From assembly GCA_029548485.1 (NCBI GenBank), contig JAKPNH010000007.1, forward strand, positions 28,706-92,705: a stretch of 64,000 bases of DNA, in the 5' to 3' direction. Of this stretch, positions 23,262 to 25,780 are shown piece after piece. A model generated the notes under the pieces. That model worked only from the letters and a program-made list of their open reading frames with translations, was not told where the DNA came from and made no database searches. The number at the start of each line of letters is the position of its first letter. The stretch's first letter is position 1. The DNA is from a bacterium. Lineage in GTDB: Bacteria; Patescibacteriota; Minisyncoccia; UBA6257; Colwellbacteraceae. The translations under genes were made by a program, and so were the position numbers.

Positions 23262-24468
23262 TGGCCATACATATATATGTGGCGGTCACCTGTCCGCCAC
23301 AGATGGCCGCAGAAGTCAAGGACATTTGGCCATCTCCGGTCATGGCCGGACAGCATGCATGACAGCCTCGAACTCACGGCCATGTGGCCGTCTTTGAAAC
23401 AAATTGATAGGCGGCCACATTGTAGAGAAGGCCACTATGCCAAATGGCCGGGAAAGACGTGTCCGGACACGCATCCGAATCAGCGTAAAACAGGTTCAGA
23501 AAATCGATCTGTCAATCTAGATCTACATAAATCGGCCTTCTTTAATATTTTGCGACACTGTTTACACAAAGTGTGAAACATCGATTTTCGGCAAAACCCA
23601 GTAGGCCGCATAAAATCTACATTTTCTTAAAAATCGATTTTTCGATGTTTCACGTGAAACATTTTGTTTACGCAAAATTGTTTCACAAACGTGTTTACAA
23701 TGTTTCACGTGAAACAATTGTGTCAAAAAACAGGTCGAAATTCCTATTTTTCGGCAAAAAAGTCGTTTTTTTATGTTTGCAATGTTTCACGTGAAACATT
23801 TACATCCAAAAACAGCTCGAATCAGATGTTTCACGTGAAACATCTGATTATTCTTCCAGACAAGGATGCTTGGCCGCGTTATTTTACCGCTGACTGCCAA
23901 ACTGAAGGACAACCCGGCCATGGCAACGGCCAAATTAGGACAAGGGGACGGTCATGGCCGTTTCGCATGAGACACTCTATGAGACGGCCATGACATGGAT
24001 GGCCGCCTGTCAGGATAGACGGCCATGCGGCCATGGCCGCATGGATTGGCCGAGTCGTTTCAAGCTCCGAAGCCTAATCGATCGGGTGTTTATAAGAAAT
24101 AAGCTATACTTAAATTATGAAGTTTTTAAGCGGGATAAAAGGAGATCAAAACAAGAAAATCACCTGTGGATATCTCGTGGACAACGCTTATAAAATATTC
24201 AATCAAGACTTTTGGCCGTCTTATAAAAAGATAGATATAATCACGATATTTCAAGGCCGGACACTTGTTTTGGTCACGGCCAAAACTATCCACAACTCGC
24301 GGCCAGACGGCCATGACCAGACCCGGCCATAATGCCATAAATGGCGGACAGAAAAACATGACATTCAGAATTCCGCATAATTAAAAGATAATTTGACTGC
24401 CAAAATATGGCCGGGTTAAAAAGAATATATGGCCGTGTCCGGAACCTGTCCGGATAGATCATGGCCAG
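23262..24468. repeat. dispersed GGCCAT-containing motif family flanking the AT-rich palindrome core
   Basis: GGTCATGGCCG occurs at 23338-23348 and 23950-23960, and inverted at 23984-23994 and 24308-24318. A 20-bp perfect palindrome CATGCGGCCATGGCCGCATG lies at 24024-24043. A 14-bp palindrome CGTGTCCGGACACG lies at 23458-23471. A direct repeat TGTCCGGA x2 lies at 24437-24456. There are many further ATGGCC/GGCCAT copies. Confidence 0.8.
23645..23848. repeat. cluster of four copies of the palindrome ATGTTTCACGTGAAACAT, one of them embedded in a 28-bp perfect palindrome
   Basis: Perfect 18-mers at 23645-23662 and 23782-23799. A 17/18 copy lies at 23700-23717. A 28-bp perfect palindrome ATCAGATGTTTCACGTGAAACATCTGAT lies at 23821-23848. 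Additional TGTTTAC/TGTTTCAC half-sites lie at 23558-23700. The central core is CACGTG. Confidence 0.9.
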
Positions 24469-25780
24469 ATGCCGCTTGACAACATGCGACAAAAGTTGCC
24501 CTCATAATTCAATGGCTATTCCTTTTATCGACGTCAAAAACTTTGGCCGATTTTCCAAGCCGCCTAAATTGAAACCCGATCAAGGATTGACCATTATCGA
24601 AATCCTTCTTTCCATTGCCATTATCGGCGTATTGTCCGGAATAACGATTTTCATCCTCAGTCCTTCGGAGCTTTTGAAACAAGCCAGGGATTCGGAAAGG
24701 GCCTCGGACATCAAAGTATTGAACCAGCTCTTCACCGCTTACATCACCCAGATAGGAGATCTTTACGGCGACCCTCTTGATGTTTATGTTTCTTTGCCGG
24801 ATGCGAATCCGGATTGTTCTTCCTATGATCTGCCGGCTCTTCCTTTGGGATACGCTTATCATTGCGTCAACGAAACCAATCTGCGGAAAGCGAACGGCAG
24901 CGGTTGGATTCCGGTGGATTTCACGCAAATCCCCGGAGGATCTCCGGTTCCTTCGCTTCCGATCGATCCCACGAACAACGAACTTTTTTATTACAGTTAC
25001 GTCGAAGGAGGATCGTATTCCTTGATCTCTTTTTGGGAATCGAAGAAATACGCGACCGCGGTCAAGAACGGTCCGCTCGAAGATTTACGGCAAGGGTTTG
25101 TCCAAGCGACCGGAACCGATCTCGATCTTGCGCCGGGGATCATTTTCGGGAACAGTTGCCAAGCCATCAAGCTTAAATACGAAAACAGCCCGACCGGCTT
25201 TTATTGGATAGACGCCGACGCCGGGGGCTTTGAGCCGGAAATCAAAGTCTACTGCGACATGGAAACCGACGGCGGGGGATGGACCCTAGTGCAATCGACC
25301 GTCAAAGGCCAAGCGGTCGATTCGAGATGGACGGCCGCGTTTTCGACGCAGCTTTACCAAACGATCGGCGAGCCGTCTTTGGACAGCCCTTACCGGCTCG
25401 CCATGCGCTATTGGCGCCTGATACCACATTCGAGCTGGAGCAAAATGGCGATCACGACCGCCGAGAAAACAAAGACCTTCGACAAATCGCCGGCCTTTTC
25501 TCTAACCGGAACGAACGAAACCGGCTTCACCTACAGCGGGTCTGATCCGGCTCGGGTTTTCAACATGCTGATTTCTTCCTATACCTGGAACACCTGCACC
25601 AACGGCCTGGCTTATTTCAACGGCGGCTGCTGCTCCACCTGCATTCTTTTTCATAGTCCGACCACCTACAACGCCAACAACCAGCCGATGATGTCGACCG
25701 TAACCGCGATCGACGGATCGACCATCCAAAAATGGAGCGGCCACGCGCCTTTGGATCGCTTGAATCTCTTTTCGAGATAG
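24461..25780 (+). CDS. type IV pilin-like protein with C-terminal fibrinogen-related domain (FReD); paralog of the DGR target's pilin core
   Basis: Prepilin motif KPDQG/LTIIEILLSIAIIGVL (Glu+5). The central region is homologous to the DGR target's pilin core. The C-terminus contains VYCDMETDGGGWTLVQ, the hallmark motif of fibrinogen C-terminal (FBG/FReD) domains. The start is uncertain (24461 or 24512). Confidence 0.7.
   Translation: MARCRLTTCDKSCPHNSMAIPFIDVKNFGRFSKPPKLKPDQGLTIIEILLSIAIIGVLSGITIFILSPSELLKQARDSERASDIKVLNQLFTAYITQIGDLYGDPLDVYVSLPDANPDCSSYDLPALPLGYAYHCVNETNLRKANGSGWIPVDFTQIPGGSPVPSLPIDPTNNELFYYSYVEGGSYSLISFWESKKYATAVKNGPLEDLRQGFVQATGTDLDLAPGIIFGNSCQAIKLKYENSPTGFYWIDADAGGFEPEIKVYCDMETDGGGWTLVQSTVKGQAVDSRWTAAFSTQLYQTIGEPSLDSPYRLAMRYWRLIPHSSWSKMAITTAEKTKTFDKSPAFSLTGTNETGFTYSGSDPARVFNMLISSYTWNTCTNGLAYFNGGCCSTCILFHSPTTYNANNQPMMSTVTAIDGSTIQKWSGHAPLDRLNLFSR

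What the first reader, a model, noticed from the sequence alone, without database searches (positions are those of the whole stretch)
24461..25780. Paralogous pilin carrying a fibrinogen-related (FReD) C-terminal domain, divergently oriented to the DGR target
The second prepilin (G/LTIIEILLSIAIIG) shares the pilin core region with the DGR target (for example LPDANPDCSSYDLPALPLGYAYHCVNETNLRKANGSGWIPVDF versus APDNSPTCDNLDLPDLPGGWSYACVPAANIRKIDSTGWVPVDF). It replaces the CLec domain with a domain containing VYCDMETDGGGWTLVQ, which is near-identical to the signature motif of animal fibrinogen C-terminal domains (ficolin and angiopoietin FReD). FReD domains are rare in bacteria, and a FReD fused to a type IV pilin suggests a glycan-binding pilus tip. 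No TR-like sequence is found at its 3' end, so it does not appear to be a second DGR target.
Basis: partly seen in the sequence, partly recalled or inferred. Interest (0 to 1): 0.65.

Follow-up and report, generated by a model that had tools for sequence, protein, structure and literature searches.

The report
Pilus subunit with fibrinogen-like head
This gene from an ultra-small (Patescibacteria) bacterium encodes a type IV pilus subunit with a fibrinogen-like, probably adhesive head; the design is already catalogued, but nearly the same head also sits on pilus subunits of ultra-small archaea.

Summary
ORF 24461-25780 (+) is intact and under purifying selection. It has three parts: a prepilin leader (G-1, E+5), a ~183-aa pilin module 42% identical to that of the neighbouring DGR target, and a 214-aa C-terminal head.

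Pfam matches only the first ~55 residues of the head. A well-supported AlphaFold model (pLDDT 86.7) matches fibrinogen, ficolins, angiopoietin and FIBCD1 over the whole domain (TM 0.6-0.65). A broader sequence profile reaches tenascin and tachylectin over ~175 positions. The head is therefore a divergent fibrinogen-related domain, but it lacks the canonical Ca2+ motif. It is not a second DGR target.

- The YCDxxxxGGGW module is widespread in prokaryotes and has its own NCBIfam model.
- "Pilin + fibrinogen C" is listed in a 2021 census of modular pilins.
- NCBI already gives a close homologue the fibrinogen-like name.

Two things are new here. This exact head subfamily (~23 clusters found) is split between Patescibacteria prepilins and archaeal (DPANN) pilins, at ~58-61% identity. 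DPANN pilins also show head swapping exactly at the GGGWTLV motif.

Most likely function is a minor or tip adhesin pilin that binds a host surface. This is inferred, not shown.

The parts
24461..25780 (+). Complete ORF of the fibrinogen-like modular prepilin (439 aa from ATG 24461; alternative start ATG 24512 gives 422 aa; stop codon 25778-25780)
   Evidence: ORF; same 439-aa gene called on ENA contig k141_634895; P0163, 422 aa, starts at the M18 equivalent; purifying selection
24461..24586 (+). Leader peptide, residues 1-42, ending in G42 (-1). Poorly conserved (21% identity to the ortholog)
   Evidence: sequence; alignment A5
24587..25135 (+). Pilin module, residues 43-225: hydrophobic alpha1-N (LTIIEILLSIAIIGVLSGITIFIL, E at +5) plus a globular pilin domain. 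It ends at ...GTDLDLAP, exactly where stand-alone homologous pilins end
   Evidence: TIGR02532 20.1 bits vs cut-off 16.3; Pfam N_methyl 20.3 vs 21.2, just below; 42% identity, E 9e-46 to the DGR target; stand-alone 186-222 aa Paceibacterota pilins P0276-P0287; alignment A5
25136..25777 (+). Fibrinogen-related (FReD-like) head, residues 226-439
   Evidence: AF2 pLDDT 86.7, pTM 0.87; Foldseek top 50 all FReDs, E ~1e-8, TMq 0.52-0.65; profile reach to PDB FReDs over ~175 positions
25154..25291 (+). A-subdomain / YCDxxxxGGGW module, residues 232-277. Contains Cys233...Cys265 and VYCDMETDGGGWTLV
   Evidence: NF040941 GGGWT_bact E 1.7e-18; Fibrinogen_C and COLFI hits at 231-294; PDB alignments to XEEL and tenascin-R
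25595..25645 (+). Cys-rich core of the P-subdomain (WNTCTNGLAYFNGGCCSTC, head residues 151-169 = protein residues 376-394). The four Cys are invariant across 117 homologues. The preceding segment lacks the canonical STxDxDND Ca2+ motif, and model confidence is lowest here
   Evidence: invariant columns C154, C165, C166, C169; alignment rows; pLDDT 55-68 for head residues 140-170
21469..22953 (-). Paralogous prepilin carrying the FGE-sulfatase/CLec-type DGR variable head (VR 21470-21586). Context only, not part of the fibrinogen-like gene
31682..33007 (-). PilB/GspE-type pilus assembly ATPase (441 aa), the nearest piece of type IV pilus machinery
   Evidence: Pfam T2SSE 389 bits; best NCBIfam models gspE/pilB, below their equivalog cut-offs; same position in syntenic L085

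Best explanation
The gene encodes a modular type IV pilin of a Patescibacteria (CPR) bacterium.

Proposed steps:
1. A prepilin peptidase removes the leader after G42.
2. The hydrophobic N-terminal helix and the ~183-aa pilin module insert the subunit into a type IV pilus. The pilus is built by the PilB-type machinery encoded 6 kb away.
3. The 214-aa fibrinogen-related head is grafted directly onto the end of the pilin module and is displayed on the filament. It is bulky, so it most likely sits at the tip or as a low-abundance subunit.
4. The head acts as a fixed-specificity adhesin for a surface molecule of the host cell on which the episymbiont lives.

The neighbouring paralogue puts a DGR-diversified C-type-lectin head on the same kind of pilin module. 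The cell would then have one constant and one hypervariable binding head.

Shown here: gene integrity and selection, prepilin motif, module boundary, fibrinogen-like fold, absence of a VR.

Inferred: processing, incorporation into a pilus, tip location, adhesive role, nature of the ligand.
For: - Prepilin motif and pilin-module homology.
- Stand-alone pilins of the same module end exactly at the junction. The same module also carries a Laminin_G_3 lectin head (P0277) and the CLec head, which shows true modularity.
- The head is a FReD fold, a fold used for ligand recognition in ficolins, FIBCD1 and tachylectin (PDB descriptions). Cyanophage tail-fibre-like proteins also carry it.
- The head is more conserved than the pilin module: dN 0.185 vs 0.30, with dS about 1.6-1.7. 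This fits a constant ligand.
- A PilB-like ATPase lies nearby and is syntenic in a relative.
- In archaea the homologous head sits on archaeal pilins that are the first genes of FlaI/FlaJ-type pilus loci.
- Precedents: modular pilins PilB and PilC of S. sanguinis are adhesins (PMC8179133). In the Patescibacterium TM7x, the minor pilin PilX2, which carries a C-terminal domain predicted to be lectin-like, is required for efficient host binding (PMC11623550).
Against: - There are no expression or protein data.
- PilC, PilD and a small major pilin were not found in the 64-kb window.
- The canonical Ca2+ site flanking the FReD binding pocket is missing, so ligand class cannot be inferred from animal FReDs.
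- +1 is Leu rather than the usual Phe/Met, and Pfam N_methyl is 0.9 bits below its cut-off.
- Tip versus shaft location is unknown. Raynaud et al. themselves do not exclude a shaft location when the linker is flexible.
Confidence: 0.6

Rival explanations
1. It is the major (shaft-forming) pilin, so the whole filament would be coated with fibrinogen-like heads rather than carrying one at the tip.
For: - No small major pilin gene was seen in the window.
- The gene is conserved in synteny directly upstream of rpsT, which may suggest steady expression.
- Raynaud et al. do not exclude a shaft location for modular pilins.
Against: - Stand-alone ~190-aa pilins of the same module exist in related Paceibacterota and are better candidates for the shaft.
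- In characterised systems, bulky modular pilins are minor (PMC8179133; PMC11623550).
- A mature size of about 397 aa would clash sterically in a standard pilus lattice. This is established knowledge of T4P packing, not tested here.
Confidence: 0.12
2. The head is not a host adhesin. It serves another extracellular role, such as self-aggregation, binding to mineral or polymer substrates, or nutrient or DNA capture. The fibrinogen-like fold would be only a scaffold.
For: - The canonical Ca2+ motif is lost and the P-subdomain is remodelled with two extra invariant cysteines.
- The same head is conserved at ~60% identity in bacteria and archaea that need not share hosts. That may fit a generic environmental ligand better than a host-specific one.
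Against: - All characterised FReDs in the fold hits are ligand-recognition domains.
- Patescibacterial pili are experimentally linked to host binding.
- Nothing in the sequence suggests an enzyme.
Confidence: 0.2
3. It is a decaying or unexpressed paralogue (pseudogene) left next to the active DGR target.
For: - The upstream UPF0102 gene is disrupted by an in-frame stop.
- No clear ribosome-binding site was seen in front of either candidate start, read by eye from the sequence; the promoter-like sites nearby are only consensus matches.
- +1 is an unusual Leu.
Against: - The 439-codon frame is intact.
- All 13 columns that are invariant across 117 homologues are retained, including C40, C154, C165, C166 and C169.
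- dN/dS is about 0.11-0.17 against the syntenic ortholog.
- Orthologs of the same length occur in 12 or more other Patescibacteria clusters.
- In the relative without a DGR it is this pilin that is kept.
Confidence: 0.04
4. It is a second, cryptic DGR target.
For: Adjacent to a DGR, and shares the pilin module with the bona fide target.
Against: - No TR-like sequence anywhere in the ORF (best non-A match 0.48, which is background).
- The head is a FReD, not a CLec fold.
- The head is the most conserved part of the protein.
- The ortholog exists without any DGR.
Confidence: 0.01

Closest known systems
Modular type IV pilins (Raynaud et al. 2021, PNAS, PMC8179133): S. sanguinis PilB (vWA module) and PilC (concanavalin-A-like lectin module). 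Their InterPro census includes the architecture IPR012902 - IPR002181
   Same: - An N-terminal class III signal peptide and pilin module with a functional module fused to its C-terminus.
- The census lists pilin + fibrinogen C-terminal domain (8 proteins, plus 2 with an extra IPR013545), pilin + fibrillar collagen C-terminal domain (1), and pilin + FGE-sulfatase (8). Many modular pilins are from CPR phyla.
   Different: - The fibrinogen-type architecture is only a row in a supplementary table. No member has been studied.
- The head module here differs from the studied vWA and ConA-like modules.
- There are no binding data for this protein.
NCBIfam NF040941 'fibrinogen-like YCDxxxxGGGW domain-containing protein' (bacterial GGGWT module), e.g. 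Haliangium ochraceum P0190
   Same: - The 46-aa module matches at 66.4 bits.
- Myxococcota-type proteins share 25-30% identity over ~90% of the head, including the four P-subdomain cysteines.
- NCBI gives this name to a member of the P0172 cluster (P0172 itself is 70% identical to the window head), from Candidatus Colwellbacteria.
   Different: - Most family members are lipoprotein- or secreted-type, or giant multi-module proteins, not pilins.
- They keep an LSTxDxGP segment that the window subfamily has lost.
Animal fibrinogen-related domains (Pfam PF00147): ficolins, FIBCD1, tachylectin-5A, angiopoietins, tenascins, fibrinogen beta/gamma; also intelectins/XEEL
   Same: - Same overall three-subdomain fold by prediction (TM 0.6-0.65).
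- Near-identical CDMxTxGGGWT(L/V) motif.
- First disulfide and the nCA...C disulfide positions are alignable.
   Different: - 14-19% identity.
- The Pfam model matches only positions 5-54 of 221.
- Ca2+ motif absent, two extra invariant Cys, shorter P-subdomain.
- Carried on a pilin rather than on a collagen or coiled-coil stalk.
PilX1/PilX2 minor pilins of the Patescibacterium Nanosynbacter lyticus TM7x (PMC11623550)
   Same: Patescibacterial pilins with C-terminal accessory domains that the authors' structure predictions liken to lectins. PilX2 is required for efficient host binding. This is the nearest experimentally studied functional analogue in the same superphylum.
   Different: - Different head folds (beta-jelly-roll, seven-bladed beta-propeller).
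- PilX1/X2 lack a predicted PilD signal, whereas this protein has one.
- No detectable sequence relationship was looked for or found.
Archaeal (DPANN) type IV pilins with the same head (P0001-P0006, P0162, P0165, P0176)
   Same: - Head 55-61% identical over its full length, with the same invariant residues.
- Also fused directly to a pilin module.
- P0165 and P0176 lie in type IV pilus loci.
   Different: - The N-terminal module is an archaeal class III signal peptide/pilin (KRG|LSTIVV..., weak UpsA similarity), unrelated in sequence to the bacterial module.
- The machinery is FlaI/FlaJ-type.

Membership tests
Type IV pilin (prepilin-type N-terminal cleavage/methylation domain, TIGR02532 / PF07963) | Class III signal peptide: short charged leader, Gly at -1, hydrophobic +1, Glu at +5, and a ~20-residue hydrophobic helix | tested here: met
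   KPDQG|LTIIEILLSIAIIGVLSGITIFIL. TIGR02532 scores 20.1 bits against a cut-off of 16.3. Pfam N_methyl scores 20.3 against 21.2, marginally below. +1 is Leu where relatives have Phe.
Type IV pilin (prepilin-type N-terminal cleavage/methylation domain, TIGR02532 / PF07963) | Globular pilin domain homologous to bona fide pilins | tested here: met
   Residues 43-225 match 13 Patescibacteria proteins at E 3e-27 to 1e-14; most are stand-alone 161-222 aa pilins and one (P0277) carries a Laminin_G_3 head. They are 42% identical to the DGR-target pilin.
Type IV pilin (prepilin-type N-terminal cleavage/methylation domain, TIGR02532 / PF07963) | Cognate machinery (prepilin peptidase, assembly ATPase, platform protein) in the genome | tested here: inconclusive
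   A PilB/GspE-type ATPase is at 31682-33007. No PilC or PilD was found among the window ORFs scanned. The rest of the genome is not available.
Type IV pilin (prepilin-type N-terminal cleavage/methylation domain, TIGR02532 / PF07963) | Processing and incorporation into a filament | not testable with these tools
   Needs biochemistry or cryo-ET.
Fibrinogen-related domain (FReD; Pfam PF00147 / InterPro IPR002181) | N-terminal A-subdomain with Cys...(Y/F)CDMxxxGGGWT signature, scoring above the family threshold | tested here: met
   PF00147 scores 28.2 bits against a cut-off of 22, at residues 233-285. PDB profile hits to XEEL, tenascin-R, fibrinogen beta and FIBCD1 have E 1e-9 to 1e-6.
Fibrinogen-related domain (FReD; Pfam PF00147 / InterPro IPR002181) | Full-length match to the family profile (B and P subdomains) | tested here: not met
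   The Pfam hit covers profile positions 5-54 of 221 only. The profile of the subfamily alone reaches PDB FReDs only over query positions 4-60. A broader profile that includes Myxococcota-type homologues extends the match to ~175 positions against tenascin-R, TL5A and Ang2, E ~5e-12. That is transitive support, not a direct match.
Fibrinogen-related domain (FReD; Pfam PF00147 / InterPro IPR002181) | Three-subdomain FReD fold | tested here: met
   The AF2 model has pLDDT 86.7 and pTM 0.87. All 50 listed Foldseek PDB hits are FReDs, with prob 1.00, TMq 0.52-0.65 and 220-275 aligned columns. This is a predicted structure, not an experimental one.
Fibrinogen-related domain (FReD; Pfam PF00147 / InterPro IPR002181) | Ca2+ site formed by the (F)STxDxDND loop next to the ligand pocket | tested here: not met
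   The window subfamily reads ...NMLISSYTWNTC... with no acidic residues, and has a deletion relative to the LSTxDxGP of Myxococcota-type proteins and the FSTEDRDND of tenascin-R.
Fibrinogen-related domain (FReD; Pfam PF00147 / InterPro IPR002181) | Binding of acetylated, glycan or peptide ligands in the P-subdomain pocket | not testable with these tools
   Needs binding assays. The invariant Y178, N182, Q183, P184, M185, D193 and G194 (head numbering) are candidate pocket residues.
NCBIfam NF040941 GGGWT_bact (fibrinogen-like YCDxxxxGGGW domain) | 46-aa module scoring above 30 bits | tested here: met
   66.4 bits, E 1.7e-18, residues 232-277, full model length 1-46.
Modular type IV pilin (sensu Raynaud et al. 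2021) | Pilin module followed by an extra, independently occurring functional module | tested here: met
   The pilin module occurs alone (P0276, P0279). It also occurs with CLec, Laminin_G_3 or FReD heads, and the junction is conserved at ...YExGxxLxL(A/T)P. The head occurs on archaeal pilins and on non-pilin proteins.
DGR variable (target) protein | A 3'-terminal VR that matches the TR except at TR adenines | tested here: not met
   The only VR in the window is 21470-21586. The best other match of non-A TR positions is 0.48, which is background.

The most novel reading that the evidence does not exclude
The fibrinogen-like head, or its B/P part downstream of the invariant YCDMxTDGGGWTLV motif, is an exchangeable adhesin cassette. 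It has moved between domains of life, from or to Patescibacteria type IV pilins and DPANN archaeal pilins.

The conserved motif would act as the recombination junction, as seen in the DPANN mosaic of P0002 versus L014/L016. The ~60% identical heads on bacterial and archaeal pili would recognise the same or a similar surface ligand. Ultra-small episymbionts of both domains would then share a common attachment toolkit.
Probability: 0.35. Interest if true: 0.65.

Novelty: new member of a known kind. Interest (0 to 1): 0.42.

Why it matters
How CPR/Patescibacteria and DPANN cells recognise and hold on to their hosts is largely unknown. Pili with accessory heads are the leading candidates.

This gene adds a concrete, testable head type: a Ca2+-site-less fibrinogen-like domain under strong purifying selection. 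It sits next to a DGR-diversified head on the same pilin scaffold, so one cell would carry a constant and a hypervariable adhesin side by side.

The wider point is that the same head subfamily is used on bacterial and archaeal pilins, with signs of cassette-like swapping at the GGGWTLV motif. If confirmed, this would be a clear case of inter-domain exchange of an adhesion module between the two groups of ultra-small symbionts. The heads could then serve as probes for shared host-surface ligands.

As an annotation, however, the gene is ordinary. The architecture and the domain are already in public catalogues.

Tried and rejected
- **AF2 on a 7-sequence alignment of the subfamily alone** gave an unusable model (pLDDT 36.6). 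It was replaced by a 117-sequence alignment.
- **The first word-indexed homologue search with the head** found only the 6 archaeal relatives and missed the bacterial ones. A second search with an alignment was needed.
- **The representatives search** was swamped by giant proteins with many GGGWT modules. Only two 50% clusters cover the whole head.
- **The genome-contig scan** returned no locus with a close full-length match to the head among the 80 listed; the best segment was 38% identical over query residues 4-103. The window's taxon rests on the names given to homologues (Patescibacteria group, Colwellbacteria, Paceibacterota) and on synteny.
- **Pfam found no archaeal signal-peptide model** on P0006, P0165 or P0176. 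There are only weak UpsA hits, and the cleavage motif was read by eye.
- **NJ tree with bootstrap** recovers a bacterial clade (77%) but does not resolve whether the archaeal sequences are a clade or a grade. The direction of transfer is therefore unknown. No ML tool was available.
- **Literature searches** combining fibrinogen, pilin and Patescibacteria returned nothing. Searches on bacterial fibrinogen-like domains returned only animal papers.
- **oriC hypothesis rejected.** I considered whether the repeat-rich spacer upstream of the gene is oriC. dnaA, dnaN and the turn in GC skew lie at 37-40 kb.
- **Second-VR hypothesis rejected**.
- **Pseudogene hypothesis rejected**.
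Full report
**1. The observation**

ORF 24461-25780 (+) exists and encodes 439 aa.
- Prepilin site: KPDQG|LTIIEILLSIAIIG, with G42 at -1, L43 at +1 and E47 at +5.
- The pilin-core stretch.
- VYCDMETDGGGWTLVQ at residues 263-278.

BLASTP against the divergently oriented DGR target (21469-22953, -) gives 42% identity over 191 aa, E = 9e-46. The similarity stops at ...DLDLAP / ...DFDLAG.

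The DGR is genuine.
- RT is at 19678-20673 and bAvd at 21059-21400, with an FGE-sulfatase/CLec-type target.
- TR is at 20867-20983 and VR at 21470-21586.
- 20 of the 21 TR/VR mismatches lie at TR adenines.

A window-wide scan that scores only the non-A positions of the TR finds just the TR and the known VR. Everything else is at background (0.48 or lower). The 3' end of this ORF is not a VR.

**2. What the protein is made of**

*(a) Leader.* TIGR02532 (prepilin N-terminal domain) scores above its cut-off (20.1 vs 16.3). Pfam N_methyl falls 0.9 bits short. The start could be ATG 24461 or ATG 24512 (M18). A near-identical database entry, P0163, is called from the M18 equivalent. Relatives also have long, unconserved leaders.

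*(b) Pilin module, residues 43-225.* Searched on its own, it finds stand-alone pilins of 161-222 aa. Sources name them 'type II secretion system protein [Candidatus Paceibacterota bacterium]' or 'prepilin-type N-terminal cleavage/methylation domain-containing protein'.
- These stand-alone pilins end exactly where the head begins in the window protein (alignment A5).
- The same module also carries a Laminin_G_3 lectin head (P0277) and, in the neighbouring gene, the DGR-diversified CLec head.
- This is therefore a scaffold onto which different heads have been grafted.

*(c) Head, residues 226-439.* Pfam Fibrinogen_C (28.2 bits) and COLFI (34.8 bits) pass their thresholds but cover only the first ~55 residues. 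NCBIfam has a dedicated 46-aa model, NF040941 'fibrinogen-like YCDxxxxGGGW domain', which matches at 66.4 bits.

A profile of the subfamily alone hits PDB fibrinogen-related domains only over positions 4-60. The hits are XEEL/intelectin, tenascin-R, tachylectin-5A, fibrinogen beta, FIBCD1 and angiopoietin-2.

Three further results settle it.
- Myxococcota-type 'fibrinogen-like YCDxxxxGGGW' proteins share 25-30% identity over ~90% of the head, including four invariant P-subdomain cysteines.
- A profile that includes them reaches tenascin-R, tachylectin-5A, angiopoietins, tenascin-C and ficolin-3 over ~175 positions, with E down to 5e-12. That match runs through the FSTxDxDND...nCA...WWYxxC region.
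- An AlphaFold2 model built on 117 sequences is confident (pLDDT 86.7, pTM 0.87). All of its top Foldseek PDB hits are FReDs: fibrinogen beta, L-, H- and M-ficolin, angiopoietin-2, FIBCD1, MFAP4, tachylectin-5A, FGL1 and ANGPTL2/6. Probability is 1.00 and TM about 0.6-0.65 over the whole domain, at 14-19% identity.

The head is thus a divergent but complete fibrinogen-related domain. It differs from canonical FReDs in three ways.
- The Ca2+-binding loop motif is absent (NMLISSYTWNTC instead of FSTEDRDNDxxxxNC).
- The P-subdomain carries two additional invariant cysteines (C165-C166-x-x-C169).
- Model confidence is lowest there (pLDDT 55-68 for head residues 140-170).

**3. Is it a live gene?**

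Yes.
- Against the syntenic ortholog in L085 (P0166; NCBI names it a prepilin-type protein of a 'Patescibacteria group bacterium'), the head has dN 0.185 and dS about 1.6. The pilin module has dN 0.30 and dS about 1.7. dS is near saturation, but omega is clearly well below 1.
- The head is the best-conserved part and the leader the worst.
- All 13 columns that are invariant across 117 homologues are retained.

**4. Genomic setting**

The window is a bacterial chromosome segment near the origin.
- It carries dnaA, dnaN, yidC, gyrA, ftsH, nusA, pnp and rpsT.
- It also carries a T4SS-like cluster of the kind reported for Patescibacteria (PMC12102498 is listed).
- A PilB/GspE-type ATPase lies 6 kb downstream of the pilin.

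L085 is collinear with the window: gyrA - metallo-beta-lactamase - S1 - FtsH - ... - FReD pilin - rpsT - holA - fpg - histidine kinase - exonuclease - tsaE - ruvB - pilB. It has no DGR cassette.

Nucleotide comparison shows that both flanks are conserved: FtsH/tRNA-Ile/tRNA-Val on the left, and the palindrome array plus UPF0102 on the right. About 4.6 kb holding the RT, Avd and CLec pilin (roughly 18.9-23.5 kb) replaces about 0.9 kb of L085.

The fibrinogen-like pilin is therefore the resident gene. The DGR cassette with its paralogous pilin is an insertion or deletion next to tRNA-Val. The 'divergent orientation to the DGR target' is not a functional coupling that is conserved.

**5. Distribution and the unexpected part**

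The GGGWT module is not rare.
- The subfamily profile hits 8243 representatives at E <= 1e-3. Most matches are to the 50-aa module only, often repeated up to 15 times in giant proteins.
- A scan of one genome per species confirmed 183 stretches. The 80 loci listed come from Myxococcota, Bdellovibrio, Planctomycetota, Verrucomicrobia, Patescibacteria, and Woese-, Pace-, Nano-, Aenigm- and Iainarchaeota, among others.

The whole head of the window type is rare. Only two 50%-identity clusters cover it in 1.84 billion representatives, and about 23 clusters at 90% identity do. These split into two sets.

*Bacterial set (13 further clusters plus the window protein).* These are P0163 (the window protein's own cluster), P0015, P0164 and P0166-P0175. 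Those with a complete N-terminus start with a bacterial G|FTLxELL prepilin motif, and Pfam N_methyl hits are recorded for several. Their heads are 58-75% identical to the window's. Sources name members after Patescibacteria or Colwellbacteria.

*Archaeal set (nine clusters).* These are P0001-6, P0162, P0165 and P0176, at 55-61% identity. Their N-termini are archaeal class III signal peptides (KRG|LSTIVVTLILVV..., KRA|ISVVIGYVLL...). P0165 and P0176 show weak UpsA-pilin similarity. The archaeal origin is secure:
- P0006 lies beside an archaeal-type PheRS beta subunit (pheT_arch, 490 bits) and an RNase P component-3 homologue.
- P0004 lies among ribosomal proteins S27e and S24e, Spt4 and Rpb7.
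- P0165 and P0176 are the leading genes of loci with a FlaI-type ATPase; the P0165 locus also encodes FlaJ/UpsF-type membrane proteins.

ORFs in MAGs titled Woesearchaeota (L014) and Nanoarchaeota (L016) share about 87% identity with P0002 over residues 1-203. That stretch covers the pilin module and A-subdomain up to GGGWTLV. Identity then drops to about 20%, because these ORFs continue into a different, more canonical FReD (FTTFDSDHD...NCG...PWWYTNC).
- This places the archaeal carriers in DPANN.
- It also shows head swapping with a breakpoint at the invariant motif.

Between the window and the archaeal proteins, the ~34 residues before the motif are 32% identical and the ~160 after it are 61%. 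Against bacterial relatives the figures are 47% and 70%.

An NJ tree groups the bacterial sequences (77% bootstrap) but leaves the archaeal ones unresolved. One inter-domain transfer is the simplest reading. Its direction is open.

**6. Mechanism**

The best-supported model is a modular type IV pilin.
1. The leader is cleaved after G42.
2. The subunit is inserted into a pilus through alpha1-N and the pilin module.
3. The FReD-like head is displayed as a constant-specificity binding module, probably at the tip or at low abundance.

The paralogous neighbour would offer a hypervariable CLec head on the same scaffold.

Support comes from the anatomy above and from three precedents.
- S. sanguinis PilB and PilC are adhesive modular pilins (PMC8179133).
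- In the Patescibacterium TM7x, the minor pilin PilX2 has a C-terminal domain predicted to be lectin-like and is needed for efficient host binding (PMC11623550).
- FReD folds occur in cyanophage tail-fibre-like proteins.

Everything beyond the anatomy is inference: processing, incorporation, location and ligand. The missing Ca2+ site means 'glycan/acetyl binding as in ficolins' cannot simply be assumed.

**7. Comparison with what is known, and novelty**

Functionally it works like a modular pilin adhesin.

Membership:
- It meets the prepilin motif and pilin-module criteria.
- It meets NF040941.
- It meets the FReD signature and the predicted fold.
- It fails the full-length Pfam match and the Ca2+-site criterion. 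It is best called a divergent FReD-like head.

The architecture is already tabulated in Dataset S1 of PMC8179133: IPR012902-IPR002181 for 8 proteins, plus 2 with IPR013545, and IPR012902-IPR000885 for 1. A homologue is already named 'fibrinogen-like YCDxxxxGGGW domain-containing protein [Candidatus Colwellbacteria]' by NCBI.

No paper in the searchable library discusses fibrinogen-like pilins in Patescibacteria. The gene is a new member of a known kind.

The observation that goes beyond the catalogues is the sharing of this head subfamily between bacterial and DPANN archaeal pilins, together with the motif-anchored mosaicism.

**8. Verdict**

- Observation: confirmed.
- Interpretation: right in its core (paralogous pilin, FReD head, not a DGR target). 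It is wrong on rarity and overstates novelty, and its proposed function is untested.
- Interest: moderate, 0.42.

Noticed in passing
window 23646-23842 (also 18753-18768); L085 5811-7503: Four perfect copies of the 16-nt palindrome TGTTTCACGTGAAACA lie in the 1.5-kb non-coding spacer upstream of the pilin gene (expected 0.02). A 2-mismatch copy sits between tRNA-Ile and tRNA-Val. The same palindrome occurs 6 times at the equivalent place in the syntenic relative L085, so the array is conserved. It could be an operator array or a repeat element. There is no Rfam hit.
   Followed up: partly
window 23303-24435: The heptamer ATGGCCG (and its complement) is strongly clustered. 15 of the window's 43 copies fall in this 1.1 kb, against about 10 expected for the whole 64 kb. 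Unexplained.
   Followed up: no
window 24114-24404: Remnant of a UPF0102 (YraN-like) gene. It is 49% identical to residues 26-122 of the intact 170-aa gene that precedes the pilin in L085. It is interrupted by an in-frame stop at 24330-24332 and lacks the C-terminal ~48 aa, so it is probably a pseudogene.
   Followed up: partly
window ~18900-23500 vs L085 ~6200-7090: The whole DGR cassette (unknown 299-aa ORF, RT, TR, bAvd, CLec pilin target) is an insertion/deletion relative to a collinear Patescibacteria genome. It is bounded by tRNA-Val on one side and the palindrome array on the other. This suggests the DGR and its target pilin moved as a unit.
   Followed up: partly
window 20867-20983 / 21470-21586: The TR/VR pair has 21 mismatches. 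20 are at TR adenines and one is a non-adenine T-to-C change.
   Followed up: no
L014 526-819 and L016 2724-3014 (Woesearchaeota / Nanoarchaeota MAGs) vs P0002/P0004: These are mosaic archaeal pilins. Identity is about 87% over the pilin module and A-subdomain up to GGGWTLV, then about 20% over the rest, because two different fibrinogen-like heads are attached. The recombination breakpoint is at the invariant motif.
   Followed up: yes
L083 10001-12459 and 14847-20281; L090 3481-8394: Archaeal type IV pilus loci. L083 opens with two tandem fibrinogen-like pilin genes of different head subtypes, and L090 opens with one. Small pilin-like ORFs and a FlaI-type ATPase follow in both, and L083 also has FlaJ-type membrane proteins.
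   Followed up: partly
window 41203-45242: T4SS-like cluster: an M23 peptidase fused to a T4SS_pilin domain, a VirB4/TraG-type P-loop ATPase (771 aa), and a PrgI-like protein. This is the kind of monoderm conjugation-like system described for Patescibacteria.
   Followed up: no
window 36854-40745: dnaN, dnaA and yidC lie where the cumulative GC skew turns from falling to rising. The chromosomal origin is probably at about 39.5-40 kb.
   Followed up: no
P0013, P0014, P0017 and others: Giant proteins (3000-8000 aa) carry up to 15 copies of the ~50-aa GGGWT module alone. The module can therefore occur as a tandem repeat without the rest of the FReD.
   Followed up: no
window 18650-18724: tRNA-Ile with anticodon UAU, next to tRNA-Val(UAC), at the left edge of the DGR cassette.
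   Followed up: no
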